Assembly (NCBI RefSeq): GCF_057098645.1
Contig: NZ_CM169472.1
Strand: one strand, 5' to 3'
Length of the DNA stretch: 64,000 bases
Shown here: in pieces, positions 6,686-20,798 of the stretch
Layout: the number at the start of each line of letters is the position of its first letter
How positions within the stretch are numbered: the first letter of the stretch is position 1
Notes under the pieces: generated by a model
What the model was told of the DNA's origin: nothing
Seen by the model: only the letters and a program-made list of their open reading frames with translations
Databases searched by the model: none
Program-made: the position numbers and the translations under genes

Positions 6686-9544
6686 ATGAATAAGCAAAAT
6701 TATGCACCTGGTATGCGGGTGGTTATTCGTGATGCCGAATGGCGTATTCGCCGGGCGGATGACAGTGGTGATGGTGGGTATTTGCTGACCTGCGATGGTA
6801 TTTCAGAGCTTGTGCGCGGTAAAGAAGGGTTATTTCTGACCAAACTGGAACAAAAAGTAGAGATCCTGGATCCCGCAAAAACGCATTTGGTGGAAGATGA
6901 ATCCGCCAATTATCAAGCGGCGCAGTTGTATATCGAAAGTCAGTTACGCCAACGCGTACCGACAGACAGTAAAGTCCATTTTGGTCATCTGGCGGCGATG
7001 GATTCCATGCCGTTTCAGCTCGATCCTACGCGGATGGCGCTGGCACAACCGCGTCAGCGGATACTCATTGCCGACGCTGTCGGTCTGGGTAAAACGCTGG
7101 AAGCGGGTATTCTGGTTTCGGAGCTGATCCGTCGTGGGCGCGGAAAACGTATTCTGGTTCTGGCGGTCAAATCGATGCTGACACAATTCCAGAAGGAGTT
7201 CTGGAGCCGTTTTGCGATCCCATTGACCCGCCTGGATTCTGCTGGTTTACAAAAGGTGCGTAACCGCATCCCAACCAACCACAACCCGTTCCACTATTTT
7301 GACAAGACCATTATCTCCATCGATACGCTGAAACAAGACATTGAATATCGTCACCATCTGGAAAATGCCTGGTGGGATATTATTGTCATTGATGAGGCCC
7401 ATAACGTCGCAGAACGTGGAACCAGTTCGTTACGCAGTAAACTGGCAAAACTGCTCGCCGGGCGTAGCGATACGCTGATTATGCTTTCAGCAACGCCGCA
7501 TGATGGTAAGGCTGAAAGTTTTGCCAGCCTGATGAACATGCTTGACCCGACGGCGATCGCCAACCCGAAAGAGTATGAATACGCCGACTTTGCCGATAAA
7601 AATCTGGTTGTCCGTCGCTTCAAAAAAGACGTGAAAGATCAGATGTCCGGCGAGTTCCCCGAGCGCAATATTGTCAAATTGACTCGCCTGGCATCCGGTG
7701 CCGAAGAAGAAGCATACCGTCGTCTGGTTGAGAGCCAGTTCCGTGATGATGACGATGAACAGGCCCAGTCTAACAAAGGTCGTCTGTTCAAGATAACCCT
7801 CGAAAAAGCGCTATTTTCCAGCCCGATGGCGTGTGCCAGCGTCGTGGCGAATCGTCTGAAGCGTCTTGAGAGCCGTAAAGATCATAATAGCCAGAGCCAG
7901 ATCAACGAACTGGAGTCATTGCTGTTGGCGCTGAATAACATTGATGCCAGCCAGTTTAGCAAATACCAGTTGCTGCTCGACACCATCCGAAAAGACCTCG
8001 CCTGGAAAGCCAATAACACGGAAGATCGCCTGGTGATCTTCACCGAAAGTATTAAAACGCTGGAGTTCCTCGAACAGCAACTGCGAGCGGATCTGAAATT
8101 GAAAGATGACCAGATCGCCACGCTGCGCGGCGATCAGGGCGATACGGTATTGATGGAAACCGTAGAAGCCTTTGGTAAAACGCAGTCGCCGTTGCGTCTT
8201 CTGGTTTGTTCGGATGTGGCATCTGAAGGGATCAACTTGCATCACCTTAGCCACAAAATGATTCACTTTGATATTCCGTGGTCGTTGATGGTATTCCAGC
8301 AACGTAACGGGCGTATTGACCGCTATGGGCAAAAACATCAGCCCCAAATCCGCTATCTGCTTACTGAGGCCAGCGAACCACAGATCAATGGCGATATGCG
8401 CGTACTGGAAGTGTTGATCAACAAAGACGAACAGGCGCAGAAGAACATTGGGGACAGTTCGGAGTTTACCGGCAAATTTACCCAGGAAGAGGAAGAAGAG
8501 CAGGTTGCAGAGTTCATGATGCAGGATGATGGTGCCAGCCTGTTTGATCAACTGCTGAACAGCAACGTCTCGGAAAGCGCCGAACACGATCTGTTTGGCG
8601 AAATATGCAGTGCGGTTTCCAGCGATGCCTCAATGGTCACCGAAGCAGACACCAGCTTGTTTGCCAGCGAACAGGCGTACTGCGAAAGAGCATTGGGTTA
8701 CCTGAAAGCCAGTGGTCAAACTATCCAGTATGAAACCTTGCCTGATAATACCTTGTCGCTGGTGGCACCGGAGGAGTTACGCCGCCGCTTCAACCAGCTA
8801 CCGCCTGAAATCGCCCCGGAGAACTGGCAGCTCTATTTAAGTCAGGATAAAACCGTCATCACCGACGCGATTGCACGCGCTCGCGGTGAGCAACATGCCT
8901 GGCCCGATGTGCAGTATCTCTGGCAAATCAACCCGGTAGTGCAGTGGCTGGACGATAAAATCTCTTCGGCTTTTGGTCGTCATCAGGCACCAGTTATCCG
9001 TCTGCCATACCTGCTTGAACCCGATGAAGATCACTTCATTCTTTCCGGGTTATTCCCGAACCGTAAATCACATCCGATGGTGAACCCGTGGATAGTGGTG
9101 AGCTTTAACCGTGAATCGCTAATCGGCAGTCAGCCATTCGCTGAGTTTTTACAACGTCATCCGCAGTTGAGTAACAAGCTGACTAACAGCGGCGGTAAAG
9201 ATCGTAATCACCAACGCCAGCAGGATTTACTTGAAGCGGCTATTGCTCATGCCCGGGAGGTATTCATCCATGATCGGAATGCGTTTGAAACGCACATTAA
9301 CCAGCAACTGAATGAGCATCTGCAAAAGCTGGACGTTTTGCGTGGGCGGCAGTTGAGCCAACTTGAGCTGGATTTTGCCGATAATAAACAGCAATTGTCA
9401 GTCAAGCAGAGCCGTAAAGAGCAGAGACAACGCGAAATCGAACACAATTTTGACAGCTATATCGAATGGATTGAGGACACCATGACGACTGAAAAAGAAC
9501 CCTACATTCAGGTAATTGCTGTTATCACCGGAGCGGAGGGTTAA
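6686..9544 (+). CDS. SNF2-family (SF2) helicase/ATPase, DISARM DrmD-like, 952 aa
   Basis: 2859-nt ORF. Motif I DAVGLGKTLEAG, motif II IVIDEAHNV, LSATP, C-terminal FQQRNGRIDRYGQK characteristic of SNF2/RAD54-type ATPases. Confidence 0.85.
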   Translation: MNKQNYAPGMRVVIRDAEWRIRRADDSGDGGYLLTCDGISELVRGKEGLFLTKLEQKVEILDPAKTHLVEDESANYQAAQLYIESQLRQRVPTDSKVHFGHLAAMDSMPFQLDPTRMALAQPRQRILIADAVGLGKTLEAGILVSELIRRGRGKRILVLAVKSMLTQFQKEFWSRFAIPLTRLDSAGLQKVRNRIPTNHNPFHYFDKTIISIDTLKQDIEYRHHLENAWWDIIVIDEAHNVAERGTSSLRSKLAKLLAGRSDTLIMLSATPHDGKAESFASLMNMLDPTAIANPKEYEYADFADKNLVVRRFKKDVKDQMSGEFPERNIVKLTRLASGAEEEAYRRLVESQFRDDDDEQAQSNKGRLFKITLEKALFSSPMACASVVANRLKRLESRKDHNSQSQINELESLLLALNNIDASQFSKYQLLLDTIRKDLAWKANNTEDRLVIFTESIKTLEFLEQQLRADLKLKDDQIATLRGDQGDTVLMETVEAFGKTQSPLRLLVCSDVASEGINLHHLSHKMIHFDIPWSLMVFQQRNGRIDRYGQKHQPQIRYLLTEASEPQINGDMRVLEVLINKDEQAQKNIGDSSEFTGKFTQEEEEEQVAEFMMQDDGASLFDQLLNSNVSESAEHDLFGEICSAVSSDASMVTEADTSLFASEQAYCERALGYLKASGQTIQYETLPDNTLSLVAPEELRRRFNQLPPEIAPENWQLYLSQDKTVITDAIARARGEQHAWPDVQYLWQINPVVQWLDDKISSAFGRHQAPVIRLPYLLEPDEDHFILSGLFPNRKSHPMVNPWIVVSFNRESLIGSQPFAEFLQRHPQLSNKLTNSGGKDRNHQRQQDLLEAAIAHAREVFIHDRNAFETHINQQLNEHLQKLDVLRGRQLSQLELDFADNKQQLSVKQSRKEQRQREIEHNFDSYIEWIEDTMTTEKEPYIQVIAVITGAEG

Positions 9545-9546
9545 TC

Positions 9547-12500
9547 ATGGCGCTGGTCGGTATTAATAACGAAAACGAATTTTACTCTAACCACTATTTG
9601 GGTGAGGTTTTCACCAGTGATATCCGCGATGTGCTGGAACCCTGGATAGCCAAGGAAAATGCAGCGCGTGAAGCGGAGCGTGCCGCTCGTGAACAGGGCA
9701 AAGACGTGGAGCCGGGATACCGCGCTCCGTGGAACCAGTTTAACAGTCTGGCGACTGAGTTTTTCCGCAAACTTGCCGAGCACGAAAAACAGCGTCAGAT
9801 CCCGCAGCGTCTGGCCGATCAACGTAATCGCTGGCAGCCATTGTTAAAGGCGCTGGGCTACGAAATTACGCCACAGATCCAAATGCTGGATGACGATACA
9901 CCGCTGCCGGTACTGGCGCGTTACAACAGCACTGACGGTAGCCCGTGGCTGTGGATTGTTGAAGCACACGATCAGGAAGAAGGAACGCTGGATCCGCTGG
10001 CGCTCTCCTTACTGACCGCGCAATTCCCGGCGGATACCGACAAACATAAGCGCGACAGCCTGCGCAAAAAAGCCAACGGTGAATATCGCAGCTGGCAGGA
10101 TCTGCTCTCTACGGCGGTCTTCACCCAAAATGAACCGCCGCGTTTTGTGCTGCTGCTCGGTAACCGTCAGCTCTTGTTGTTGGACCGTACTAAGTGGGCG
10201 CAAAACCGTCTGCTACGTTTTGATTTTGAAGAGATTTTAAGCCGTCGTGAAACGGATACGCTGAAAGCGACTGCGGTGTTGTTACATAAAGATTCTCTGC
10301 TGCCGGGCAGTGGGGCACCTTATCTTGACTCGCTGGATGACAATTCGCACAAACATGCGTTTGGTGTTTCGGAAGATCTGAAATATGCCCTGCGCGAAAG
10401 CATTGAGTTGCTGGGCAACGAAGCGATGCATTATCTGATCGACCGTGGCCTGGCAAACTATACCGGTAACCGTGCGGTGGACCCGGATGAACTGAGCCGC
10501 GAATGTCTGCGTTACATGTACCGCCTGCTGTTCCTGTTCTACATTGAAGCGCGCCCGGAGCTGGGTTATGCGCCAATGACTGCCAAAACTTATCTACAGG
10601 GCTACAGCCTGGAAACGTTGCGCGATCTGGAGATGATCCCGCTGACCAGCGAAGAAGATCGCAACGGGCGCTACTTCCACGACAGCCTGAATATGCTGTT
10701 TAAACTGGTGCGCGAAGGCTACAACGGCGGCGTGAAAATGCAGAGTGACCTGGAGAGCGGCGACCGGATCACCATCCATAGTCATCAGTTCAGCGTCCCG
10801 CGTCTGGAAAGTCATCTGTTTGATGCCAACAACACGCGCATTCTTAACCGCGTGGTATTCCGTAACGAAACCCTGCAACAGATTATCCAGGCGATGTCGT
10901 TAAGCCGCCCGGCCAAAGGGCGCTTTAACCGCCGCGGACGTATTTCTTATCGCCAGTTGGGTATCAACCAGTTGGGTGCGGTGTATGAGGCGCTGCTCTC
11001 CTATCGTGGATTCTTCGCCAGCGAAGACCTCTACGAGGTGAAGAAAGCCGGGGAAGAGTTTAACGAGCTGGAGACAGGTTACTTCGTCAGTAAGGATGAG
11101 ATTGGCAAATACCACGAAGACGAGAAGGTCTACGAGAAAGACGGCAGTCTGCGCATTCACCGCAAAGGCAGCTTTATCTACCGTATGGCCGGGCGCGACC
11201 GTGAGAAATCTGCCTCTTATTACACCCCGGAAGTGCTGACCCGCTCACTGGTTAAATATGCCCTGAAAGAACTGTTTAAGGAGCAGATTGATCCCATTAG
11301 CGATCCGCACGCCAAAGCTGATGCCATCTTAAACCTCACCGTGTGCGAACCGGCGATGGGCAGCGCGGCGTTCCTTAACGAAGCCATCAACCAGCTGGCG
11401 GAAGCGTATCTGTTCCACAAGCAGCAGGCGGAAGGTCGCCGTATTCCGCAGGATCGTTACACCCAGGAGTTACAGCGGGTGAAAATGTACATTGCCGACA
11501 ACAACGTTTTCGGCGTGGACTTAAACCCGGTGGCGGTGGAACTGGCGGAAGTGTCACTGTGGTTGAACGCCATCAGTGGCGATGCCTTTGTACCGTGGTT
11601 TGGTTACCAGCTGCACTGCGGTAACTCACTGGTGGGCGCGCGCCGTCAGGTGTTCAACAAGAGTGAACTGACCTACAAAAAAGCCAAAGATCCGAGCTGG
11701 CTTAACAGCGAGCCGGTCGAACTGGCGATGAACACGCCGCGTGAAGAGACGCAGATTTTCCACTTCCTGCTGCCCGACGGCGGTATGGCTAACTACAGCG
11801 ATAAAACTGTTAAGCAGCGTTATCCGGATGACTTCAAAGCCCTGGACAGCTGGCGCAAAGAGTTTATTAAAAGCTTTGCCGGGCATGAGATTGCTGATGT
11901 GCAGCGTATCAGCGAAAAGGTGGAAGCTCTGTGGAACACTTATCGCCAACAACTTAAAGCAGAACGTCTGAAAACCGCCGACAGCTACCCGGTGTGGCCG
12001 GCAGAAAACAGCGAGCAGACGCGTTCTTCGCTGAGCAGTAAAGATGAAACCTTTAGCGGTCGTCTTGAAGATAACAGCGCCTACCAGAAGCTGCGTTGGG
12101 TAATGGACTACTGGTGCGCGCTGTGGTTCTGGCCGATCGACAAAGCCGATGAGCTACCGGATCGCGGCACCTGGTTGTTTGAGATTGAAACCCTGCTCGA
12201 CGGGATTGTAATCACGGAAAAAGTCACTGAAGTTGCGGAGCACACCACCGGCGATCTGTTTGCCGAAGAAGGCCTGCTGCGAGAAGAGTCTTCGCTGTTT
12301 TCCGTTGCTGGTCGTCTGAAAACCGAGGTGTTGTTCCGTCATTTGCCGCGTCTGGCGATTGTCGATGCCCTGAGAAAGCAGCACCGTTTCTTCCACTGGG
12401 ATCTGGAGTTCTGCGACCTGTTTGCCGAGCGCGGCGGTTTTGACCTGATGCTCGGAAACCCGCCGTGGCTGAAAGTGGAATGGCAGGAAGCGGGCGTGCT

Positions 12501-14457
12501 GGGTGATTACGAGCCGGAATTTGTGCTGCGTAAGCTGAGCGCCTCGAAGCTGGCAACGTTGCGTGTTGATACCTTTAACCAGATCCCGGCACTGGAAGCG
12601 GCCTGGCGCAGCGAGTATGAAGGCTGTGAAGGGATGCAAAACTTCCTCAATGCGCAGCAGAACTACCCGGTACTAGCAGGACAAAAAGCGAATTTGTATA
12701 AATGTTTTCTACCTCTGGGGTGGCGCTTAGGGGCGCAGAAAGGTGTCGTAGGGTTCCTGCATCCGGAAGGAATTTATGAAGACCCGAAAGGGGGAAAACT
12801 GCGTGGGGCGGTCTATCCAAGGTTAAGAGCTCATTTTCAGTTTCAAAATCAGCATATGCTTTTCCCTATCGGTGACAGGGTTAAGTTTAGTATTAATATC
12901 TACACCGCGTTTGTAAGTGATCATATTGGCTTCATTAGTATTGCAAACTTATTCTCGGCAAAAACGATTGAACTGTGTTTGTCGCATGATGGAACTGGAG
13001 AAGTGGGTGGTATTAAAGATGACGAAACCGACTCATGGAACGAATCAGGACACCAAAGCCGCATATTGAAAGTATCGTTAGAGCGGCTTTCCTTGTTTGC
13101 TAATTTGTATGATGAGCTAGGTATACCTGCGATTGAGGCCAGATTACCTGCTCTTCATGCGGATCACTTGGTGTCTGTGCTTGAGAAATTTGCTAAGCAG
13201 CCAACTAGATTGAGTGACTTAGAAAAAGACTATTATTCAACCCAACATTGGAACGAAGTTAATGCTCAGGATGATGGGATAATCAGACGCGAAACCCAAT
13301 TCCCGGAAGACGCATCCCAATGGATTTTGTCTGGTCCGCACTTCTATGTTGGAACACCGCTTTATAAAACGCCGAGAGAAATTTGCACAGAGAAAGGACA
13401 TTATGACTGCCTGGACTTGCTAACTCTGCCCGACGACTATCTGCCGCGCACTAACTATATTCCAGCATGTGATGCACAGGAGTATGCAAAGCGCACCCCA
13501 CGGGTTTCGTGGAAAGAACAGGATGAAGACGAGCCGAGGAAGGTGACGGATTATTATCGTCATATAAATCGAAGAGCCATTGGTTGTTCTTCGGAGCGAA
13601 CTGCTATAGGTGCAATTATACCCAAAGATGTCGCTCATATAGATGGGGGATTCTCATTAACTTTCAAAGACCCTAAACAACTGGTGATTTTTAATACCAG
13701 CTTCAATTCCTTACCTTTTGACTTTGTAATTAAAACAACGGGTAAAAGCGATTGTCGGGCGGAATTAGTAAAAATTTTACCAATGCTTTCAGATATAGGG
13801 ACAAGGCTATTTGCTCGGGGCTTAGTTAATAATGCAATAACAGCGCATTACTCCGATCTCTGGCAATCCTGCTACACCCCAGACTTCAACACCCAGCGTT
13901 GGAGCCGCGATCTCCCGCTGCTGCCCCAGGATTTCTTCGCCAATCTGACCCCAGAGTGGCAGCGTAACTGCGCCTTACGCTCCGACTACAGCCGCCGTCA
14001 GGCGCTGGTGGAAATCGACGTACTGGTGGCGCAGGCGCTGGGGTTAACCCTCGAAGAGCTGCTTACCATTTACCGTGTACAGTTCCCGGTTATGCGCCAG
14101 TACGAAGCGGACACCTGGTACGATCAAAACGGTCGTATTATCTTTACCCCAAGCAAAGGGCTGGTGGGCGTTGGCTTGCCGCGTACCGCGCGTAAAGCTG
14201 ACCTGAAAAACGGCTTTGTCTTTAACGTCGACAGCCCGGACTGGACCGGCGGTGACTGCACCGATCAAGCCATCGGCTGGGATGATGTCAAACATCTTAA
14301 AACTGGTACCGTCAGCGTCACCTTTGATGACTATACCCGCAGCGACGAAGGCGAGCGCCGTACCGTCACCTGGCAGGCACCGTTTATCAAGCCGGATCGC
14401 GAAGACGACTACAAAGTGGCCTGGGCGTTCTTTGCACAAGATAAGGAGAGCGCCTGA
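9547..14457 (+). CDS. Large gamma-class N6-adenine DNA methyltransferase (PglX / DrmMI / type IIG-like), 1636 aa
   Basis: GGAGGG RBS at 9534-9539; start 2 nt after gene 2 stop. SAM motif I-like CEPAMGSAAFL, GVDLNPVAVELAEVSLWL, catalytic motif IV NPPW at 12457-12468. Confidence 0.85.
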   Translation: MALVGINNENEFYSNHYLGEVFTSDIRDVLEPWIAKENAAREAERAAREQGKDVEPGYRAPWNQFNSLATEFFRKLAEHEKQRQIPQRLADQRNRWQPLLKALGYEITPQIQMLDDDTPLPVLARYNSTDGSPWLWIVEAHDQEEGTLDPLALSLLTAQFPADTDKHKRDSLRKKANGEYRSWQDLLSTAVFTQNEPPRFVLLLGNRQLLLLDRTKWAQNRLLRFDFEEILSRRETDTLKATAVLLHKDSLLPGSGAPYLDSLDDNSHKHAFGVSEDLKYALRESIELLGNEAMHYLIDRGLANYTGNRAVDPDELSRECLRYMYRLLFLFYIEARPELGYAPMTAKTYLQGYSLETLRDLEMIPLTSEEDRNGRYFHDSLNMLFKLVREGYNGGVKMQSDLESGDRITIHSHQFSVPRLESHLFDANNTRILNRVVFRNETLQQIIQAMSLSRPAKGRFNRRGRISYRQLGINQLGAVYEALLSYRGFFASEDLYEVKKAGEEFNELETGYFVSKDEIGKYHEDEKVYEKDGSLRIHRKGSFIYRMAGRDREKSASYYTPEVLTRSLVKYALKELFKEQIDPISDPHAKADAILNLTVCEPAMGSAAFLNEAINQLAEAYLFHKQQAEGRRIPQDRYTQELQRVKMYIADNNVFGVDLNPVAVELAEVSLWLNAISGDAFVPWFGYQLHCGNSLVGARRQVFNKSELTYKKAKDPSWLNSEPVELAMNTPREETQIFHFLLPDGGMANYSDKTVKQRYPDDFKALDSWRKEFIKSFAGHEIADVQRISEKVEALWNTYRQQLKAERLKTADSYPVWPAENSEQTRSSLSSKDETFSGRLEDNSAYQKLRWVMDYWCALWFWPIDKADELPDRGTWLFEIETLLDGIVITEKVTEVAEHTTGDLFAEEGLLREESSLFSVAGRLKTEVLFRHLPRLAIVDALRKQHRFFHWDLEFCDLFAERGGFDLMLGNPPWLKVEWQEAGVLGDYEPEFVLRKLSASKLATLRVDTFNQIPALEAAWRSEYEGCEGMQNFLNAQQNYPVLAGQKANLYKCFLPLGWRLGAQKGVVGFLHPEGIYEDPKGGKLRGAVYPRLRAHFQFQNQHMLFPIGDRVKFSINIYTAFVSDHIGFISIANLFSAKTIELCLSHDGTGEVGGIKDDETDSWNESGHQSRILKVSLERLSLFANLYDELGIPAIEARLPALHADHLVSVLEKFAKQPTRLSDLEKDYYSTQHWNEVNAQDDGIIRRETQFPEDASQWILSGPHFYVGTPLYKTPREICTEKGHYDCLDLLTLPDDYLPRTNYIPACDAQEYAKRTPRVSWKEQDEDEPRKVTDYYRHINRRAIGCSSERTAIGAIIPKDVAHIDGGFSLTFKDPKQLVIFNTSFNSLPFDFVIKTTGKSDCRAELVKILPMLSDIGTRLFARGLVNNAITAHYSDLWQSCYTPDFNTQRWSRDLPLLPQDFFANLTPEWQRNCALRSDYSRRQALVEIDVLVAQALGLTLEELLTIYRVQFPVMRQYEADTWYDQNGRIIFTPSKGLVGVGLPRTARKADLKNGFVFNVDSPDWTGGDCTDQAIGWDDVKHLKTGTVSVTFDDYTRSDEGERRTVTWQAPFIKPDREDDYKVAWAFFAQDKESA

Positions 14458-17400
14458 TGCTGCCGTCCGTTGTCAGTCGGCAGGTCGCCGACAGCGTTGC
14501 CGCCTTTTTACGGGCGGCGTTCCCGCTAAACAGCCCGCTGTTTAACGGTGAGAATAACGATAATGTCTCAATGCTGGAGCAATTTCTGGCCCAGCCCGAA
14601 ACGCTGCTGAAAGGACCATACCTTTCCGCCCAGTTGCCGTTTCGTAAAAGTGACTTACCACTGAATTTCTTCCCTAATCTGACGCTGCCGTTCCCGCCGC
14701 ACGCGCATCAGGCCCGGGCATTTCAGCGTCTGGGAAGCGACGCGCCACAGCCGACACTGGTCGCTACCGGTACCGGCTCCGGTAAAACAGAATGCTTTAT
14801 GTTCCCGCTGCTCAACCACTGCGCGGGCGCGTCACATGCCGGGGTTAAAGCGATTATCATCTACCCGATGAACGCCCTGGCAACCGATCAGGCCAGCCGT
14901 TTCGCCAAAACCATCGCCAGCGATCCACAACTGCATGGCAAGGTGACCGTCGGCTTGTTTGTCGGCGACAGCGAAATCGAACCCAGCAAGAAAATGTCGG
15001 CAGAAAAGGTCATTACCTGCAAGCACACGCTGCGCGAAAGCCCGCCGGACATCCTGTTGACCAACTACAAAATGCTCGACTACCTGCTGATGCGCCCTGG
15101 CGATCAGCCGCTCTGGCGTTACAACCAGCCCGGTTCATTGCGTTACCTGGTCGTGGATGAATTGCATACGTTTGATGGCGCGCAAGGGTCGGATCTGGCC
15201 TGTCTGGTGCGACGTCTGAAGCATCACATAGGTGTGGATAACCAACGATTCGCCTGCGTCGGGACATCAGCTACCGTCGGCGACGAACTGGGGCAACTGC
15301 TCGATTACGCAAAAACAATCTTTGACCAGCCGTTTACCGATGACGCCGTTATTCGCGAAGATCGCTACACGGCAGCGGAGTACTTGCAGGATTATGCCAT
15401 TGCGTACAGTCAGTATCCGGGGCCGGAGGCCGCTTCGGCCCTGGACCCGCAGAGTTACTCTACCCCGGTAGCGTATCTCAACGGGCAAATCCCTTTGTGG
15501 TTCCCCGACAGCGATTTGCAACTCCCGGACGATCTGGAGAGCGACGACGGGCGTGAAAAGCGTATTGCGCTGGGGTCACTGTTACGCCGCCACAGCGTGA
15601 TGCATGTCTTACTCCATGATCTGCAAGGCGGGATCCTCTCTGAGCGAGAGTGTCTGGAAAATCTCCAGGTCATGCTGGCAGAAAGCGCCGACCATGCCCG
15701 ACGCGTGCTGCAAAGCATTCTGGCGCTGATCGCGCAGGCACGTCTCGAAGTACCGGAAACGGAACACGATCGTCAAAAACGTCTCCAGGCGAAGAAAGCG
15801 CGTCCGGTGCTGCCGTTTGTGCAACTGCGCTCCCAGTTGTGGCTTCGTGAGATGCGTCGTCTGGTCGCCAGCGTGGCGAAAACGCCGCGACTGGTGTTTG
15901 CCGATGATGTGGCGGTGGAAGACCGCGAACACTATTTGCCGGTTATCCACTGCCGTGACTGCCATGCAACCGGCTGGGCCAGCCTGCGTCATGGGCAAAG
16001 CGTTCAGCTGGAAACAGACCTCGACGGCATTTATCGCCAGTTCTTTGAAAAAGGGCGCTCCATCGTCCTCGCTTTCCCGGATAATAACGAAAAAGCGGTC
16101 AGTGGCGCACACCAGAAACTGTGTCCTACCTGTCTGAAACTTAACCGACAGTCCAGCGTCCAGTGTGGACATTGCGGTCATACGGAACTGTTGCAGGTAC
16201 TGATCCCGGATATGCTCAAAGAGCGTAAGGACGAGCTGGAGTTTGCTAATGAATGCCCGTACTGCAACAGCAAACAGGGGATTTCGATCCTGGGGTCACG
16301 GGCTGCCAGTCTGTCGGCGGTGATGATTCACCAGCTTTATGGCAGCCAGTTCAACGAACATAAAAAGCTGATTACGTTTTCTGACTCGGTACAAGACGCC
16401 GCGCATCGTGCCAGCTTCTTTACTGCCCGAACCTGGCCGCTGATGATTCGTGGGCAAATCGCCAGTGTTCTTGGCGAAAAAGAGACATTACCGCTGGATG
16501 CGTTCGCGGCGCGTGTTTGCCAACAAACGCGTGAACGTTCACCGGACGATGCTCATTTTGCAGCGAACTTCATCGCACCAAATATGCAGTGGCTGAATGA
16601 TTATCAGACGCTGAAAAATGAAGGCAAACTGGCGGAGAACTCCGATCTGCCGGAGCTGGTTTCCCTGCGCCTCGACTGGGAGGTGTACAGCGAATTTACC
16701 CTGCGCGCGCGTATCGGACGTACGCTGGAAGCCACCGGTTATGCCGTTGCCGGAGTGGATAAAGATCGCTTTAATCCGGCAATTACCGCCCTGCATCAAC
16801 AGCTTTGTGAAGAGCTGGGTGATGAGATGTCCGGTGTGAGCGTCGAGCAGGTAGCGCACCTGGCGCTGGGGGTTATCTGGTATCAACGCCAGGCCGGGGC
16901 CGTTATGCATCCGGCGTTCGAAAGTTATCGCCGTGATGGCACGACCTTTATGATGACGCAAAAAGAGCGTACATCGCGCTATATGCCTTCTATCGGTCCG
17001 AAAACGCGTAAACCGGCTTATGCGTCGTTTGAAAAAATTAATGGTTTCCATCGCCTGATTGGCGCGAAGTCTAACCCCAGTTGGTATCAGCATTGGATCA
17101 ATCGCACGCTGAGTAACGGCAATAATCTGTTTATCAGTAGCGTTGCGGAAACAGTGTTACGACGCCTGTTTACGGCGTTGAAAATAGCCGGAGTAGTAAA
17201 AGATTTTGACACCAAAGGGCGTGAAGCCTGGGGACTGGTGCCTTCGGCGCTGGTGGTGAGCCGTGACGTCGTTCAGCTTAATTGCTCATGTTGCCGTGAG
17301 GTTGTCCGGGCTCCGGCCGATCAAGGCTGGCAGTGGCGTAATGCGCCTTGTCTCTCTTTACGTTGTGAAGGTCGTTACCTAGAAGTCGACAATATGGCGA

Positions 17401-20400
17401 CCTGGCGTTGGGAGAACATGGACATCGCGCGCGTGCAGGGCGCAGAACACACGGGGCTGCTTAGCCGTGAAGATCGCGAAGCCACCGAAAAATCGTTCTA
17501 CCGCGGCAACCAACCGTGGAATATCAACCTGTTGTCGGCAACACCGACGCTGGAGATGGGTATTGACGTTGGGGATCTTTCCACCGTTTTACTCTGTTCT
17601 GTCCCACCTGCTCAGGCCAACTACTTGCAACGTATTGGTCGCGCCGGTCGTAAAGATGGTAACGCGTTAAACATTACCGTGGCAGAAGGGAACCCGCACG
17701 ATCAGTTTTTCTTTGAAGAACCACTGGAGATGATGCAGGGCCAGGTGCAGGCTCCTGGCGTCTTCCTCAATGCAACGGCTATTCTCGAACGCCAGCTGGC
17801 AGCTTTTTGTATGGATAACTGGGTGAAAACCGGTGTACCAGAATCCGCTATCTGTAAAAACGTCAAACAGATGCTGGATGAGCTGGAGTTCGGGCGTAAA
17901 TCGGGTTTTCCGTATAACTTACTGCGATATATCGAACAGCATCATGCGGAGATTGCTGCGCAATTTACGGCAATCTTCCCCGATCTTGCCGCAGAAACTC
18001 GCCAACAGCTGTTGTCTTATCTTCAGGGCGCGCCAGGACAACGCTCGCTGGTGCAGCGTATCGAAGAAGCGTTAAAACTGCTGGTGGAAGATCGCAAATC
18101 TTTGCGCTCACGCATCGATAAACTCAAGCGCAGTATCGATAAACTGGAGAACGCGCCGCGCGATCAAAACTTTGATAGCGATATGCGCGAGTTAACTTCG
18201 GAACGGCAGGCGCTGATGGCGCTGGTCAATCAAATCAACAATAAGCAAACGCTGAATTTCCTCACGGATGAAGGTCTGCTGCCTAACTACGCCTTCCCGG
18301 AAGCCGGTATTACGTTACGTTCTGTGCTCTGGCGGCGTAAAGAAGGCGGGGAAGCACGTGAATATCAAAACACCACTTTCGAATATGAACGCCCGGCATC
18401 AACGGCGCTGGCTGAGCTGGCTCCGCTGAATAATTTCTATGCCGGTGGGCATAAAGTTGAAATTGAGCAGATAGACCTGAAGGTCTCTGAGCCGGAGAAC
18501 TGGCGTATCTGTAGCCACTGTAACTACAGCGAAAATATCGACCAGACGGGCGACCAGCATAAATATTGCCCGAAATGTGGCACACCGGGGTGGGCCGATG
18601 CCGGACAAAAAACCACGCTGCTGAAACTTCGCCAGGTTTATGCCCGCGCCAGCGCACGTGATAGCCAGATCAGCGACGAGAGCGACAGCCGTGAACCTGC
18701 TTTCTTCCAGCGTCAGCTATTGGTTAGTTTCGAAAAAGAAGATGTATCGGCGGCATACGCGATTGAGGAAGGCGAAGTTCCGTTTGGTTTTGAATTTTTA
18801 AGCAAAGTCACCCTGCGGGATATCAACTTCGGCAAAATGGCGGATGATGCCAATGAGTTGATGATTGCCGGAGAAGCGAAGAAGCGAACCGGGTTTAAAG
18901 TTTGCCTCGGGTGCGGCATGGTGCAGCGTCCTCGCGATCATGAACCACGTCATGATTTGAGCTGCAAATATCGCACGGAACCGGAAAAGGCGAAGTTCGA
19001 AGATTATCTCTACCTCTATCGCCAGCTGGAGTCAGAAGCGTTGCGTATTCTGCTCCCGGTAAGCAGTTACAGTAATGACCGTGTCGTGGAGGCTTCTCTT
19101 GGGGCGGCGATCCAGCTCGGTCTTAAACATTACTTCAAGGGGAATGTCGATCACCTGAAAGGCGTTGTGTACCGCGAGCCGGAAAATGAAGGCGAATCCT
19201 GGCGGCAGTATCTGGTGATTTACGATACCGTCCCGGGGGGGACTGGTTCTCTTAAAGAACTGATGCGCACTCCCGACAATTTGCTGAAATTACTTGAACT
19301 GGCCTATCAGGCAATAGTGGAATGCAGTTGCAACAATGATACGCATAAAGATGGTTGTTATCGTTGCGTTTACGCTTACCGTGACCGTGGGCGCATGAAG
19401 TATGTCTCCCGCGATCAGGCGCGTCTCTTGCTGGCGAAAATTTTGCAGGCAAGAGATTCGATACGGGTAATTGATTCCATCAAAAACATTTCCCTCGAAG
19501 CCATGATGGGCAGTGAGCTGGAAAAACGGTTTATTAGCTGCCTGCAAGAAAATAAAAACCTGATTGTCAGTCGCAGTTACGCGCATCAGGGCGCTGGGTG
19601 GATTATTAACACCCGCAGCGAACCGATGATGAGCTGGCATCTTAAAGCTCAGGTGGATTTAGGCGCTAAAGAGGCGGTGGGGATCCCTTGTCGCCCGGAT
19701 TACGTGCTATATCCGCTTATGCAGTCTGATGCCATTAAACCGGTGGTTATTTTCCTTGATGGCTTTGCGTTCCACAAAAATAGCGTCGCAGAGGATGTGC
19801 AAAAACGCCAGGCGATTCGGGATAGCGGTAATTTCTGGGTGTGGACAGTCACGTGGGCCGATCTCAAAGAGCCTGGGCTTAAACATGTTCAGGATGTCCT
19901 GGGACTTGGGCATAACCCGGATATGAAACAGCCTAAGTTTTATAACCTGTTTCATGATACCAACTTTGCGGCCCTTGAAGCGTCGTTCCGGGAACGCAAC
20001 AGTTTTGCACTGCTGCTGGATTATCTCGCCGATCCGGGCGGAAGAACGCAGTTATGGCAGAGAATGGCTGCTGCACATGCCTGGGTGTGGTTGGATGTGA
20101 AGAAGTCACAGGACGCGGGAACGAAACAAAAGTATGCCTATGAAATGCAGGAAAACGCGCCAGCCTGGCGGCTAGCAGAGCTTTTGCCAGACGAACCGTT
20201 TGTCTTTGGTGGTTTACTCGATAGCTGTAACTCATCGCAGCAATTTATTGAGCTGGCTTCGGTGTTGCCACAACAAGCCATTAAACCGACGACCAGCGTC
20301 GCACAAATGCGCAGCTGGCTGCGTTTGCATATCTGTTTTGACGATCGCTATACGCAGGATGACGGTTATGAAGCGGGACTCAATGGCTTCTGGCGACTGG

Positions 20401-20798
20401 TAAACCTGTTACAGTTCCTGCCGGATATGACCTTTACCAGCCGTAAAGCCGTGCATTTACCGCAGGAAAGCGTTGACACTAAAGTTTCGGCAACGCCAGA
20501 GGCAGTACCAGAGACTGATGAGAGTTGGGCTGAGATTATTGAGTTTGGCTTATTAAGCGCTGAAGAGATCGCGTTGCTTCAGTCTCATTCTCTCTCTGCG
20601 CCGACTCTCGGCTACGAATTGCAAAATGATGAAGGTGAAATTATTGCGGAAGCCGATCTCGCCTGGCCATCACAAAAATGGGCATTGATTATTGATAATC
20701 AAGAATTTATTCCATTATTCACAACCAGGGGTTGGCACGTTGCATTCGGGCCAATTGACGAAAATACATTGCAACATCTGTCCGGAGGTGACAAATGA
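14457..20798 (+). CDS. Second giant SF2 DEAH helicase-DUF1998-like fusion, paralogous to gene 1, with a C-terminal DUF559/Vsr-like PD-(D/E)xK nuclease-like motif, 2113 aa
   Basis: Start overlaps gene 3 stop (TGATG); AAGGAGAG RBS. Walker A TGTGSGKTE, motif II VVDELHTF, TSAT, QRIGRAGRKDG. Cys clusters CSHC...CPKCG, CLGCG, CSCNND...CYRC. C-terminal RPDYVLYP...VVIFLDGFAFH...KRQAIRDSGNFWVWTVTW. Confidence 0.85.
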   Translation: MLPSVVSRQVADSVAAFLRAAFPLNSPLFNGENNDNVSMLEQFLAQPETLLKGPYLSAQLPFRKSDLPLNFFPNLTLPFPPHAHQARAFQRLGSDAPQPTLVATGTGSGKTECFMFPLLNHCAGASHAGVKAIIIYPMNALATDQASRFAKTIASDPQLHGKVTVGLFVGDSEIEPSKKMSAEKVITCKHTLRESPPDILLTNYKMLDYLLMRPGDQPLWRYNQPGSLRYLVVDELHTFDGAQGSDLACLVRRLKHHIGVDNQRFACVGTSATVGDELGQLLDYAKTIFDQPFTDDAVIREDRYTAAEYLQDYAIAYSQYPGPEAASALDPQSYSTPVAYLNGQIPLWFPDSDLQLPDDLESDDGREKRIALGSLLRRHSVMHVLLHDLQGGILSERECLENLQVMLAESADHARRVLQSILALIAQARLEVPETEHDRQKRLQAKKARPVLPFVQLRSQLWLREMRRLVASVAKTPRLVFADDVAVEDREHYLPVIHCRDCHATGWASLRHGQSVQLETDLDGIYRQFFEKGRSIVLAFPDNNEKAVSGAHQKLCPTCLKLNRQSSVQCGHCGHTELLQVLIPDMLKERKDELEFANECPYCNSKQGISILGSRAASLSAVMIHQLYGSQFNEHKKLITFSDSVQDAAHRASFFTARTWPLMIRGQIASVLGEKETLPLDAFAARVCQQTRERSPDDAHFAANFIAPNMQWLNDYQTLKNEGKLAENSDLPELVSLRLDWEVYSEFTLRARIGRTLEATGYAVAGVDKDRFNPAITALHQQLCEELGDEMSGVSVEQVAHLALGVIWYQRQAGAVMHPAFESYRRDGTTFMMTQKERTSRYMPSIGPKTRKPAYASFEKINGFHRLIGAKSNPSWYQHWINRTLSNGNNLFISSVAETVLRRLFTALKIAGVVKDFDTKGREAWGLVPSALVVSRDVVQLNCSCCREVVRAPADQGWQWRNAPCLSLRCEGRYLEVDNMATWRWENMDIARVQGAEHTGLLSREDREATEKSFYRGNQPWNINLLSATPTLEMGIDVGDLSTVLLCSVPPAQANYLQRIGRAGRKDGNALNITVAEGNPHDQFFFEEPLEMMQGQVQAPGVFLNATAILERQLAAFCMDNWVKTGVPESAICKNVKQMLDELEFGRKSGFPYNLLRYIEQHHAEIAAQFTAIFPDLAAETRQQLLSYLQGAPGQRSLVQRIEEALKLLVEDRKSLRSRIDKLKRSIDKLENAPRDQNFDSDMRELTSERQALMALVNQINNKQTLNFLTDEGLLPNYAFPEAGITLRSVLWRRKEGGEAREYQNTTFEYERPASTALAELAPLNNFYAGGHKVEIEQIDLKVSEPENWRICSHCNYSENIDQTGDQHKYCPKCGTPGWADAGQKTTLLKLRQVYARASARDSQISDESDSREPAFFQRQLLVSFEKEDVSAAYAIEEGEVPFGFEFLSKVTLRDINFGKMADDANELMIAGEAKKRTGFKVCLGCGMVQRPRDHEPRHDLSCKYRTEPEKAKFEDYLYLYRQLESEALRILLPVSSYSNDRVVEASLGAAIQLGLKHYFKGNVDHLKGVVYREPENEGESWRQYLVIYDTVPGGTGSLKELMRTPDNLLKLLELAYQAIVECSCNNDTHKDGCYRCVYAYRDRGRMKYVSRDQARLLLAKILQARDSIRVIDSIKNISLEAMMGSELEKRFISCLQENKNLIVSRSYAHQGAGWIINTRSEPMMSWHLKAQVDLGAKEAVGIPCRPDYVLYPLMQSDAIKPVVIFLDGFAFHKNSVAEDVQKRQAIRDSGNFWVWTVTWADLKEPGLKHVQDVLGLGHNPDMKQPKFYNLFHDTNFAALEASFRERNSFALLLDYLADPGGRTQLWQRMAAAHAWVWLDVKKSQDAGTKQKYAYEMQENAPAWRLAELLPDEPFVFGGLLDSCNSSQQFIELASVLPQQAIKPTTSVAQMRSWLRLHICFDDRYTQDDGYEAGLNGFWRLVNLLQFLPDMTFTSRKAVHLPQESVDTKVSATPEAVPETDESWAEIIEFGLLSAEEIALLQSHSLSAPTLGYELQNDEGEIIAEADLAWPSQKWALIIDNQEFIPLFTTRGWHVAFGPIDENTLQHLSGGDK

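What the first reader, a model, noticed from the sequence alone, without database searches (positions are those of the whole stretch)
12680..13860. Compositionally distinct (AT-richer) ~1.2-kb block inside the methyltransferase gene, suggestive of a swapped target-recognition module
Within gene 3 the sequence changes by eye from GC-rich E. coli-like codon usage to an AT-rich stretch (for example ttagtattaatatctacaccgcgtttgtaagtgatcatattgg) and back, without interrupting the reading frame. In large type IIG / PglX / DrmMI-like methyltransferases the specificity domain lies downstream of the NPPW catalytic motif (here at 12457-12468) and is known to be exchanged horizontally. The block would span roughly residues 1045-1440.
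Basis: seen in the sequence. Interest (0 to 1): 0.6.

Follow-up and report, generated by a model that had tools for sequence, protein, structure and literature searches.

The report
Swappable DNA-recognition cassettes in ArmB methyltransferase
The AT-rich stretch is the DNA-recognition part of ArmB, the methyltransferase of the ARMADA II anti-phage system; it is made of two hypervariable cassettes that bacteria exchange independently by recombination, probably changing which DNA sequence the defence system reads.

Summary
Inside ORF 9547-14457 (1636 aa), third-codon-position GC (GC3) falls from 0.64 to about 0.40 between about 12630 and 13910, then returns to 0.69, with the frame intact.

The gene is armB, the PglX/BrxX-like N6-adenine methyltransferase of ARMADA type II (armABCD, 6686-22909), next to Druantia III druE. 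The system was described in two 2025 preprints.

Among 525 E. coli genomes the gene is 96-100% identical outside the block. Inside it, identity is only 35-75%, and synonymous sites are saturated.

The block is two cassettes, VR1 (about 12640-13400) and VR2 (about 13500-13900), joined by a conserved linker. They assort independently:
- One genome is 100% identical to the window through VR1 and 35-55% in VR2.
- Another shows the reverse.
- 69 enterobacterial sequences give 12 VR1 types, 18 VR2 types and 40 combinations.

A model of the block matches only target-recognition domains (M.BseCI, CamA, TaqI, PglX, HsdS, MmeI).

It is a population-level, two-module TRD exchange, not a one-off import, because every allele is AT-rich there. 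A change of DNA specificity is inferred, not shown. This is a new instance of a known phenomenon, of moderate interest.

The parts
9547..14457 (+). armB: PglX/BrxX-like N6-adenine DNA methyltransferase of ARMADA type II (1636 aa, intact here)
   Evidence: ORF. The PADLOC REase_MTase_IIG model scores 930 bits and DrmMI 191 bits. Pfam gives weak Eco57I, MmeI_Mtase and N6_Mtase hits. The first 1000 aa are 99% identical to O157:H7 ArmB. The operon is named armABCD in PMC12458937 and bioRxiv 10.1101/2025.09.22.677730.
11347..11373 (+). SAM-binding motif I (EPAMGSAAF, G605)
   Evidence: G605 is the residue mutated (G605A) in PMC12458937.
12457..12468 (+). Catalytic motif IV, NPPW (N971-W974)
   Evidence: N971A abolishes ARMADA defence in PMC12458937. 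The residues are invariant in 75 homologues.
12630..13910 (+). Whole compositionally distinct, hypervariable block (TRD-coding region), about aa 1029-1455
12640..13400 (+). Variable cassette VR1 (core 12810-13290, about aa 1095-1245); itself finely mosaic
   Evidence: L015 is 40-80% identical here but 100% in VR2. L004 and L008 differ only at 12810-13440. L002 and L008 show sub-blocks. pS is 0.56-0.89 for pairs carrying different VR1 types.
13400..13500 (+). Conserved linker and crossover zone, inside the conserved 'mid' segment aa 1246-1325 (SGPHFYVG ... LPDDYLPRTNY)
   Evidence: Both reciprocal recombinants switch identity here. The residues are near-invariant across the family.
13500..13900 (+). 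Variable cassette VR2 (about aa 1335-1445), the most divergent segment
   Evidence: L014 is 100% identical through VR1 and 35-55% here. L008 and L010 are identical up to about 13470, then 30-55%. Amino-acid identity between alleles is 27-61%, apart from shared types.
13912..14457 (+). Conserved C-terminal tail of ArmB (aa 1455-1636)
   Evidence: 95-100% aa identity among alleles; dS about 0.14-0.23.
6686..9544 (+). armA: SNF2/DrmD/BrxHII-like helicase
   Evidence: PADLOC DrmD 333 bits; NCBIfam DISARM_DrmD 350 bits, below the curated cutoff.
14457..20798 (+). armC: YprA/DruE-like DEAD/DEAH helicase with an HNH-like C-terminus
   Evidence: PADLOC DruE models, and a ZorE HNH hit at aa 2021-2096. 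Pfam DEAD, Helicase_C and MZB on the orthologue.
20795..22909 (+). armD: UvrD/GajB-like helicase
   Evidence: PADLOC GajB 123 bits; annotated as a UvrD-helicase domain protein.
139..6462 (+). druE of the neighbouring Druantia type III system (context, not part of the cassette)
   Evidence: PADLOC DruE3 2182 bits. The upstream STY4851/ECs_5259-family gene (druH in 10.1101/2025.09.22.677730) is seen in RM9872.

Best explanation
The block encodes the target-recognition domain (TRD) of ArmB, the PglX/BrxX-like N6-adenine methyltransferase that ARMADA type II (armABCD) needs for phage defence.

The TRD-coding region is built from two hypervariable cassettes, VR1 (about 12640-13400) and VR2 (about 13500-13900). 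They sit between almost invariant flanks and are joined by a conserved linker.

Shown here:
- Many anciently diverged versions of each cassette circulate among Enterobacterales, on genomic islands and on conjugative or mobilizable plasmids.
- Recombination breakpoints fall in the conserved flanks and linker, and the two cassettes assort independently, giving many VR1 x VR2 combinations.
- All versions are AT-rich at silent codon positions. The compositional step therefore marks the boundary between a vertically stable gene body and a horizontally circulating cassette pool.

Inferred by analogy with BrxX/PglX, the MmeI family and type I HsdS:
- Each cassette contributes part of the DNA-sequence readout.
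- Swapping a cassette changes the motif that ArmB binds or methylates, and so changes which DNA ARMADA treats as self or foreign.

The mechanism itself, homologous recombination after horizontal transfer, is also inferred from the pattern rather than observed.
For: **Composition**
- GC3 is 0.417 in the block against 0.646 elsewhere in armB (p = 2e-16), with GC2 unchanged.
- Every one of 12 alleles is AT-richer in the block.

**Mosaic**
- armA's last kb, armB's first 3 kb and armC's first kb are 94.6-99.9% identical. The block is 53-75% identical, except in one strain that carries the same allele.
- 525 of 5426 E. coli genomes hold the gene, but only 37 match the block at 95% or more.

**Ancient alleles under constraint**
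- For pairs with different cassette types, pS is 0.56-0.89 in VR1 and 0.65-0.85 in VR2. It is 0.04-0.19 in the N-terminal 1000 codons and 0.13-0.20 in the C-terminal tail.
- dN/dS is below 1 wherever it can be computed.

**Independent assortment**
- L014 is 100% identical to the window at 12340-13330 and 35-55% in VR2. L015 is 40-80% in VR1 and 100% at 13540-13830.
- L008/L010 share VR1 (98% aa) but not VR2 (35%). L004/L008 share VR2 (99%) but not VR1 (59%).
- 69 sequences give 12 VR1 types, 18 VR2 types and 40 combinations.

**Cross-genus sharing**
- The window's VR2 type occurs at 95% aa in Salmonella. Its VR1 type occurs at 93% aa in Morganella.

**Vehicles**
- 17 plasmids carry the gene, 7 conjugative and 6 mobilizable, in E. 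coli and Klebsiella.
- The same allele sits in a tRNA-Phe/integrase island in pig strains.

**Fold**
- The whole C-terminal model is collinear with BrxX/PglX (Foldseek E = 1.6e-4, about 1000 columns).
- The cropped block hits only TRD-bearing proteins: M.BseCI 9.5, CamA 9.1, BpuSI 7.7, TaqI 7.0, S.BsaXI 6.9, PglX 6.8, EcoKI HsdS 6.3, MmeI 6.0.

**Literature**
- ArmB N971A and a full armB deletion abolish defence (PMC12458937).
- armB is the variable gene of the island (10.1101/2025.09.22.677730).
- In BrxX the TRD has two alpha/beta subdomains, is the most variable part, and sets both methylation and defence specificity (PMC11842806; PMC11341690).
Against: - No methylation motif, and no DNA methylation at all, has been reported for ArmB. 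Neither ARMADA preprint mentions one.
- The structure models are of only moderate confidence (pLDDT 72 and 63).
- Pfam and PDB sequence searches of the block find nothing.
- The conserved linker is not predicted as the helical spacer seen in HsdS and PglX.
- The published O145 methylomes list only GATC and CTGCAG (PMC3893438). That is uninformative for RM13514, where armB is split by an IS. RM13516 was not examined.
Confidence: 0.7

Rival explanations
1. The cassettes vary mainly to escape phage-encoded inhibitors of ARMADA, or to co-adapt with partner proteins, not to change DNA sequence specificity. The variable surfaces would then be protein-protein interfaces under an arms race.
For: Ocr binds BrxX through TRD and CTD residues (PMC11842806), so TRD surfaces can be inhibitor targets. 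No ArmB motif is known. VR2 relatives were found only inside the ArmB family: all 150 best hits are collinear with ArmB.
Against: The block's fold matches are all DNA-reading domains. armA and armC next to it are 97-100% conserved, so there is no sign of co-varying partners. DNA mimics such as Ocr bind independently of the recognition sequence. Synonymous saturation and dN/dS below 1 indicate exchange of old alleles rather than rapid local positive selection.
Confidence: 0.15
2. The block is a single recent insertion of foreign AT-rich DNA peculiar to this strain.
For: There is a sharp compositional step at both ends.
Against: All 12 alleles examined are AT-rich in the same interval. The interval is homologous and in frame in all of them, with conserved scaffold residues. 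The window's VR1 and VR2 are found separately in other genomes.
Confidence: 0.02
3. The region is decaying under relaxed constraint, on its way to becoming a pseudogene.
For: armB is broken in all 23 O145 and O145-allele RefSeq genomes listed: a 2-bp deletion in 17, an IS3-split copy in three, and matches that begin mid-gene in three more.
Against: The window's ORF and 11 of 12 alleles are intact. dN/dS is 0.17-0.48 in the variable regions where it can be computed. Dozens of invariant scaffold residues lie inside the block across homologues that are about 50% identical.
Confidence: 0.02
4. It is a programmed intragenomic switch: a shufflon, inverton or phase-variable repeat that swaps in silent cassettes within one cell line.
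For: [quoted passage not shown] Six pig-strain genomes of the Res13 series have a second matching place that I did not locate.
Against: No second copy of any part of the block exists in the 64-kb window by blastn or tblastn. There are no tandem repeats in the gene. The only inverted repeat is one 16-nt, 88% pair. No invertase is adjacent to armB; fimB and fimE further downstream belong to the fim switch.
Confidence: 0.03

Closest known systems
ArmB of ARMADA type II from E. coli O157:H7 (NCTC 12900 / EDL933 z5899-z5902 operon; PMC12458937, bioRxiv 10.1101/2025.09.22.677730)
   Same: Same operon order, armA-armB-armC-armD, downstream of druHE. Identity is 99% aa over residues 1-1000 and 98% over 1455-1636. 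G605 and N971 have the same numbering.
   Different: The TRD block is only about 65% identical in nucleotides. VR1 is 50% and VR2 35% identical in amino acids. The O157 allele is 1644 aa against 1636 here.
BrxX/PglX, the methyltransferase and specificity factor of type I BREX (PDB 9ewz, 9ex7, 8q56, 8c45)
   Different: Sequence identity is only 9-11%, and no HMM-level similarity is detectable in the block. The partner proteins differ: three helicases here, against BrxB, BrxC and PglZ in BREX. ArmB has a highly conserved segment of about 80 aa between two separately exchanged cassettes. No ArmB recognition motif is known.
Type I HsdS specificity subunits (TRD1-CR-TRD2-CR) and type IIB enzymes, where TRD shuffling creates new bipartite specificities
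   Different: ArmB is a single chain with one catalytic domain. The linker is not predicted as a coiled-coil spacer; it is coil with low pLDDT. Whether the motif is bipartite is unknown.
MmeI-family type IIL and type IIG enzymes (MmeI, BpuSI, DrdV) and gamma-class solitary methyltransferases (M.TaqI, CamA, M.BseCI)
   Different: No nuclease domain was found: Pfam finds nothing in residues 1-540. Any restriction activity presumably lies in the partner helicase-nucleases. Specificity change in MmeI-type enzymes is mostly described through point substitutions rather than cassette exchange (my own knowledge).
DrmMI of class 1 DISARM
   Same: An adenine methyltransferase encoded beside an SNF2 (DrmD-like) helicase and a DrmA/DUF1998-like helicase. 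PADLOC DrmMI hits reach 191 bits.
   Different: The score is much weaker than for the IIG model (930 bits). The operon lacks a separate DrmB and DrmC and adds a UvrD-like ArmD. The founding paper places ARMADA in a separate clade.

Membership tests
ARMADA type II (ArmB) | Strict gene order: BrxHII/SNF2-like helicase, PglX-like methyltransferase, YprA-like DEAD/DEAH helicase, GajB/UvrD-like helicase | tested here: met
   ORFs 6686-9544, 9547-14457, 14457-20798 and 20795-22909 overlap or abut on the + strand. The definition is in PMC12458937.
ARMADA type II (ArmB) | Orthology to the experimentally validated ArmB of E. coli O157:H7 | tested here: met
   99% aa identity over residues 1-1000 and 98% over 1455-1636 to the O157:H7 strain 4276 allele (L002). 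It is syntenic with 99% identical armA and armC ends.
ARMADA type II (ArmB) | Intact methyltransferase motifs shown to matter for defence (GxG with G605; NPPW with N971) | tested here: met
   EPAMGSAAF at aa 601-609 and NPPW at aa 971-974.
ARMADA type II (ArmB) | Confers anti-phage defence | not testable with these tools
   Shown for the O157:H7 allele only. Not shown for this allele.
Gamma-class N6-adenine DNA methyltransferase with C-terminal TRD (PglX / MmeI / TaqI type) | Motif I precedes motif IV, and the TRD follows the catalytic domain | tested here: met
   Motif I is at aa 601, motif IV at aa 971, and the variable TRD-like block at aa 1029-1455. The protein is collinear with BrxX/PglX by Foldseek.
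Gamma-class N6-adenine DNA methyltransferase with C-terminal TRD (PglX / MmeI / TaqI type) | The block adopts a TRD fold | tested here: met
Gamma-class N6-adenine DNA methyltransferase with C-terminal TRD (PglX / MmeI / TaqI type) | Sequence-specific m6A methylation of a defined motif | not testable with these tools
   No motif is reported in the ARMADA papers. The O145 methylome paper is uninformative for RM13514, whose armB is IS-split.
Type IIG restriction-modification enzyme (fused nuclease and methyltransferase) | A nuclease domain in the same polypeptide | tested here: not met
   Pfam finds nothing in aa 1-540, even at E <= 10, and only methyltransferase families in aa 485-1636. The PADLOC model name REase_MTase_IIG is only a label. 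A divergent nuclease fold was not excluded by structure.
Horizontally exchanged TRD cassette (allelic TRD swapping as in hsdS or pglX) | Sharp identity breakpoints, with near-identical flanks and deeply diverged interior | tested here: met
Horizontally exchanged TRD cassette (allelic TRD swapping as in hsdS or pglX) | The same cassette is found on different backbones or partners, and in different taxa | tested here: met
   The window's VR1 type occurs with 3 VR2 types, and its VR2 type with 4 VR1 types. Salmonella and Morganella share these cassettes. The gene is also on plasmids and in a second island.
Horizontally exchanged TRD cassette (allelic TRD swapping as in hsdS or pglX) | The cassette allele correlates with the recognised motif | not testable with these tools
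   Needs methylome data per allele.
Type I HsdS-like double-TRD architecture | Two complete TRDs separated by long helical conserved spacers | tested here: inconclusive
Phase-variable or shufflon-type specificity switch | Silent cassettes, inverted repeats with a recombinase, or simple-sequence repeats in the gene | tested here: not met
   No second copy in the window, no tandem repeats, and only one weak 16-nt inverted repeat.

The most novel reading that the evidence does not exclude
ArmB would be a single-chain, single-catalytic-domain methyltransferase whose DNA specificity is set combinatorially by two separately exchangeable cassettes, each reading a different part of an asymmetric or bipartite motif. 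ARMADA II populations could then generate on the order of 12 x 18 specificities by simple recombination, much as type I hsdS does. The natural chimeras found here would give a direct code for predicting and reprogramming ARMADA self/non-self discrimination. They would also provide the first evidence that ARMADA is a sequence-motif-based, epigenetic defence.
Probability: 0.3. Interest if true: 0.6.

Novelty: new member of a known kind. Interest (0 to 1): 0.45.

Why it matters
ARMADA II was described only in 2025. It is reported as the dominant phage barrier of EHEC O157:H7, but how it tells self from foreign DNA is unknown.

Almost all natural variation in the whole Zorya-Druantia-ARMADA island turns out to sit in two recombining cassettes of the ArmB recognition domain. 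This points to DNA-motif recognition by ArmB as the specificity step.

It also supplies ready-made natural chimeras: same VR1 with different VR2, and the reverse. These can be used to find the motif, to test whether defence range follows it, and to predict which phages a given strain can resist. That is relevant to phage therapy against EHEC.

Finally, typing armB by whole-gene identity hides a combinatorial structure, and several O145 lineages carry a broken armB.

Tried and rejected
- **Pfam on the block and 29 homologues:** no TaqI_C or Methylase_S hit, only a spurious DUF4298.
- **PDB sequence and profile searches with A1 and A2:** no hits, even at E = 10. The TRD assignment therefore rests on fold comparison only.
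- **The search for homologous proteins with VR2 alone:** 1 candidate and nothing scored. This is a limit of the word index, not evidence.
- **Exhaustive phmmer of VR2:** 543 relatives. All 150 best hits are collinear with ArmB, so no sharing of this cassette with other methyltransferase families was detected.
- **Methylome literature:**
  - The O145 paper lists only GATC and CTGCAG. It was rejected as evidence because armB is IS-split in RM13514 and RM13516 was not checked.
  - No O157:H7 methylome paper was found.
  - S. Heidelberg has an unassigned ACC(m6A)NCC motif and carries ArmB homologues. The authors suspect a plasmid enzyme, so this is a lead only.
- **Intragenomic switching:** no silent cassettes, tandem repeats or meaningful inverted repeats.
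- **Internal promoter or terminator in the AT-rich block:** no more than chance.
- **Amino-acid-composition explanation:** rejected because GC2 is unchanged.
- **Second matching place in the Res13 pig genomes:** not located within 20 kb on either side.
Full report
**1. The observation**

The finding sits inside ORF 9547-14457 (+ strand, 1636 aa, no stop). A 300-bp GC profile runs 0.55-0.57 at 12100-12700, drops to 0.40-0.46 at 12700-13900, and climbs back to 0.57-0.59.

The 5' part of the gene has GC3 0.640 and the 3' part 0.685. GC2 barely moves (0.39 vs 0.38-0.42), so the shift lies at silent sites and not in amino-acid content.

GC3 over codons 1029-1455 is 0.417 against 0.646 for the rest of the gene (chi-square 67, p = 2e-16). 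It is the lowest such stretch in the four arm genes.

The quoted string is at 12887-12929, and NPPW is at 12457-12468. One caveat applies: against the whole 64-kb window, 18% of equal-length windows are at least as AT-rich. The block is distinct relative to its own gene, not relative to the genome.

**2. What the gene is**

PADLOC and NCBIfam identify five large genes in a row:

| Coordinates | Identification | Score |
|---|---|---|
| 139-6462 | DruE3 | 2182 bits |
| 6686-9544 | SNF2/DrmD-like helicase | 333 bits |
| 9547-14457 | the methyltransferase | REase_MTase_IIG model 930 bits; DrmMI 191 bits |
| 14457-20798 | DruE/YprA-like DEAD/DEAH helicase with an HNH-like end | 347 bits (DruE3 model) |
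| 20795-22909 | UvrD/GajB-like helicase | 123 bits |

The window is 99.9% identical to E. coli O145 RM9872, where an STY4851/ECs_5259-family gene (druH) lies upstream.

Two 2025 preprints name the four-gene cluster ARMADA type II (armABCD) and show that it defends E. coli O157:H7 against many phages. All four genes are needed, and ArmB N971A (the NPPW motif) abolishes protection (PMC12458937; 10.1101/2025.09.22.677730). G605 and N971 fall on exactly those residues in the window's protein.

[quoted passage not shown] It does not localise or interpret that variation. Neither paper reports a methylation motif or a TRD.

**3. Mosaic structure**

The gene is present in 525 of 5426 complete E. coli genomes. 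Most match at 95-99% but cover only about 86% of the gene, in three pieces. The block alone matches at 95% or more in only 37 genomes and at 60-80% in 375.

I aligned 12 alleles (L001-L012). Nucleotide identity to the window is:
- 96-100% from 9547 to about 12500,
- 35-60% at 12770-13250,
- 80-97% at 13270-13500 in many alleles,
- 35-55% at 13500-13840,
- 93-100% from 13912.

The last kb of armA and the first kb of armC are 97-100% identical in all alleles.

At protein level this gives five segments:

| Segment | Residues | Identity between alleles |
|---|---|---|
| N-terminal part | 1-1000 | 95-99% |
| VR1 | about 1095-1245 | 38-61% between types |
| Conserved middle segment | 1246-1325 | mostly 71-97% (50-58% for the outlier L012) |
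| VR2 | about 1335-1445 | 27-61% between types |
| C-terminal tail | 1455-1636 | 95-100% |

For pairs carrying different cassette types, synonymous differences are saturated: pS is 0.56-0.89 in VR1 and 0.65-0.85 in VR2, against 0.04-0.19 in the N-terminal 1000 codons and 0.13-0.20 in the C-terminal tail. dN/dS is below 1 wherever it can be computed. The cassettes are therefore old alleles brought in by recombination, not recent local hypermutation. Every allele is AT-richer in the block (GC 0.35-0.48 against 0.54-0.58).

**4. Two cassettes that assort independently**

- L008 and L010 are 95-100% identical up to about 13470, then 30-55% until 13900.
- L004 and L008 differ only at 12810-13440 and are 96-100% identical from 13446 on.
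- L002 and L008 alternate between identical and different on a finer scale within VR1.

For the window's own cassettes:
- A genome fetched via P0002 (L014) is 100% identical at 12340-13330 and 35-55% at 13540-13860.
- A genome fetched via P0033 (L015) is 40-80% identical at 12640-13400 and 100% at 13540-13830.

The crossover lies in the conserved linker near 13400-13500.

Among 69 enterobacterial C-terminal sequences whose tails are at least 93% identical, clustering at 80% aa gives 12 VR1 types, 18 VR2 types and 40 combinations. The window's VR1 type occurs with 3 VR2 types, and its VR2 type with 4 VR1 types. Its VR2 is found at 95% aa in Salmonella, and its VR1 at 93% aa in Morganella.

Divergence between E. 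coli cassette types (VR1 about 50%, VR2 about 35-40%) is as large as divergence to homologues whose flanks are only 50-65% identical.

**5. Routes of exchange**

- armB is on 17 plasmids: 15 from E. coli and 2 from Klebsiella, of which 7 are conjugative and 6 mobilizable.
- The very same allele sits in pig E. coli strains in another island, beside tRNA-Phe and a tyrosine integrase.
- Nothing suggests an intragenomic switch. There is no second copy of any part of the block in the window, no tandem repeats, only one weak 16-nt inverted repeat, and no excess of promoter or terminator motifs.

**6. Is it a target-recognition domain?**

- Sequence methods are silent. Pfam finds nothing in the block, and PDB sequence and profile searches find nothing.
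- An AlphaFold2 model of residues 540-1636 (pLDDT 72) has BrxX/PglX of BREX as its best PDB matches. Foldseek gives E = 1.6e-4 with about 1000 aligned columns. CamA, M.BseCI, BpuSI, M.TaqI and LlaBIII follow.
- Since the query has no catalytic domain, those matches must run through the partners' recognition domains.
- In BrxX the TRD (651-837) consists of two alpha/beta subdomains. It is the most variable part, and its engineering changes both methylation and defence specificity (PMC11842806; PMC11341690).

I therefore read VR1 and VR2 as the variable parts of an ArmB TRD. I cannot say which of them carries the canonical TRD fold. From memory, the VR2 pattern "L..F..S....DF..K.TGK........LP" resembles the C-terminal signature of HsdS and TaqI-type TRDs. 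That is a lead, not a test.

An exhaustive phmmer search with VR2 found 543 relatives. The 150 best are all collinear with ArmB, so the cassette pool appears to be internal to this family.

**7. Mechanism**

Shown:
- the compositional step;
- the breakpoints;
- ancient allele divergence under purifying selection;
- independent assortment of the two cassettes;
- sharing across genera and replicons;
- TRD-like fold, at moderate model confidence.

Inferred:
- the exchange happens by homologous recombination, after horizontal transfer, in the conserved flanks and linker;
- the cassettes read DNA bases;
- swapping them changes the motif that ArmB recognises, and so changes ARMADA's target range.

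The last step rests on analogy with BrxX/PglX, MmeI and HsdS. It also rests on the fact that ArmB is required for defence rather than only for self-protection: armB deletion mutants are viable and phage-sensitive.

The main rival is that the variation serves escape from phage inhibitors or partner co-adaptation. It is not excluded, but several observations disfavour it: the DNA-reading fold matches, the invariance of the neighbouring genes, and the old age of the alleles. A one-off foreign insertion, decay under relaxed constraint and a programmed shufflon are each contradicted by the data in sections 3-5.

**8. Comparison and novelty**

The gene is a member of ARMADA II ArmB: operon order, orthology and motifs were all tested and met. 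It works like PglX/BrxX.

It is not a type IIG enzyme in the strict sense, because no nuclease domain was found (Pfam none in aa 1-540). The two-module arrangement resembles type I hsdS shuffling, but in a single chain with one catalytic domain. The HsdS-like helical spacer is not predicted, so that comparison is inconclusive.

TRD exchange is a well-known way for restriction-like systems to diversify, and armB variability was already noted at gene level. What is new here is:
- its localisation to the TRD;
- the two-cassette combinatorial structure;
- the identification of natural reciprocal chimeras.

I rate it a new member of a known kind, with moderate interest of 0.45.

Noticed in passing
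window 13152-13153 and 12397; RefSeq O145 genomes (L001 = NZ_CP028379.1): The window's armB is intact. Seventeen O145-type RefSeq genomes in the listing (RM9872 and relatives; four are not labelled O145) show the same 1099-of-1101-bp match and split annotation. In RM9872, the one I aligned, this is a 2-bp deletion (TC in CTGCTCTTC) that frameshifts the gene inside VR1, plus a W951R change in the conserved FFHW motif. RM13514, RM12581 and FWSEC0002 have the gene split, with an IS3 transposase annotated in FWSEC0002, at about window 13210. Three more genomes match only from about 13155 onward.
   Followed up: partly
L016 (NZ_CP062815.1 806322-847420): Pig E. coli 'Res13' strains carry the same armB allele (99.5% nt in the block) in a different chromosomal island, next to tRNA-Phe and a tyrosine integrase near speC/mutY. 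There druE is truncated by ISKpn26. These genomes also show a second matching place that I did not locate.
   Followed up: partly
L014 (GCA_030473865.1 contig JASZOW010000019.1), gene at 3001-6282: armB is truncated at its 5' end (1093 aa remain) and abuts fimD/fimH remnants on the opposite strand. This indicates a deletion joining the fim operon to the ARMADA locus.
   Followed up: no
window 13282-13521 (aa 1246-1325): The segment between the two cassettes (SGPHFYVG...YKTPR...LPDDYLPRTNY.PAC) is nearly invariant across homologues that are only about 50% identical overall. AlphaFold nevertheless predicts it as low-confidence coil. Its role (DNA backbone contact, partner docking or hinge) is unexplained.
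   Followed up: no
protein database hits P0001-P0120: A large share of database ArmB entries are 'partial' proteins at contig ends or fragments. Examples are Salmonella Heidelberg C-terminal pieces of 742-778 aa and E. coli pieces of about 655-675 aa that start near NPPW. Short-read assemblies may break at this gene, perhaps from co-resident copies or IS insertions, and some entries are pseudogene fragments.
   Followed up: no
literature: PMC4393132 (S. Heidelberg CFSAN002064 and CFSAN002069): An asymmetric motif, ACC(m6A)NCC, methylated at 99% of about 2700 sites, has no assigned methyltransferase in S. Heidelberg. That serovar carries ArmB homologues (P0018-P0022). The authors suspect a plasmid enzyme, so the link to ArmB is only a lead.
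   Followed up: no
window 139-2200 (5' part of druE): druE as a whole is AT-richer than the arm genes (GC3 0.46). Its lowest 427-codon stretch (GC3 0.384) starts at nt 898, which is lower than the armB block.
   Followed up: no
window about 23000-64000 (by correspondence with L013, RM9872): Downstream of armD lie a frameshifted transposase, a truncated sialate O-acetylesterase, nanM/nanC, the fimB-fimH type 1 fimbrial operon, gntP, uxuAB-uxuR, iraD, iadA, a 5.2-kb inverse autotransporter gene (iatD), yjiJ-yjiN and mdtM. These are ordinary E. coli core and accessory genes. The defence island ends at the transposase remnant near 23.5-24.4 kb.
   Followed up: partly
window 11374-12456 (aa 610-970): About 360 residues separate methyltransferase motif I from motif IV, an unusually long insertion inside the catalytic domain. 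Part of it is modelled with low confidence.
   Followed up: no
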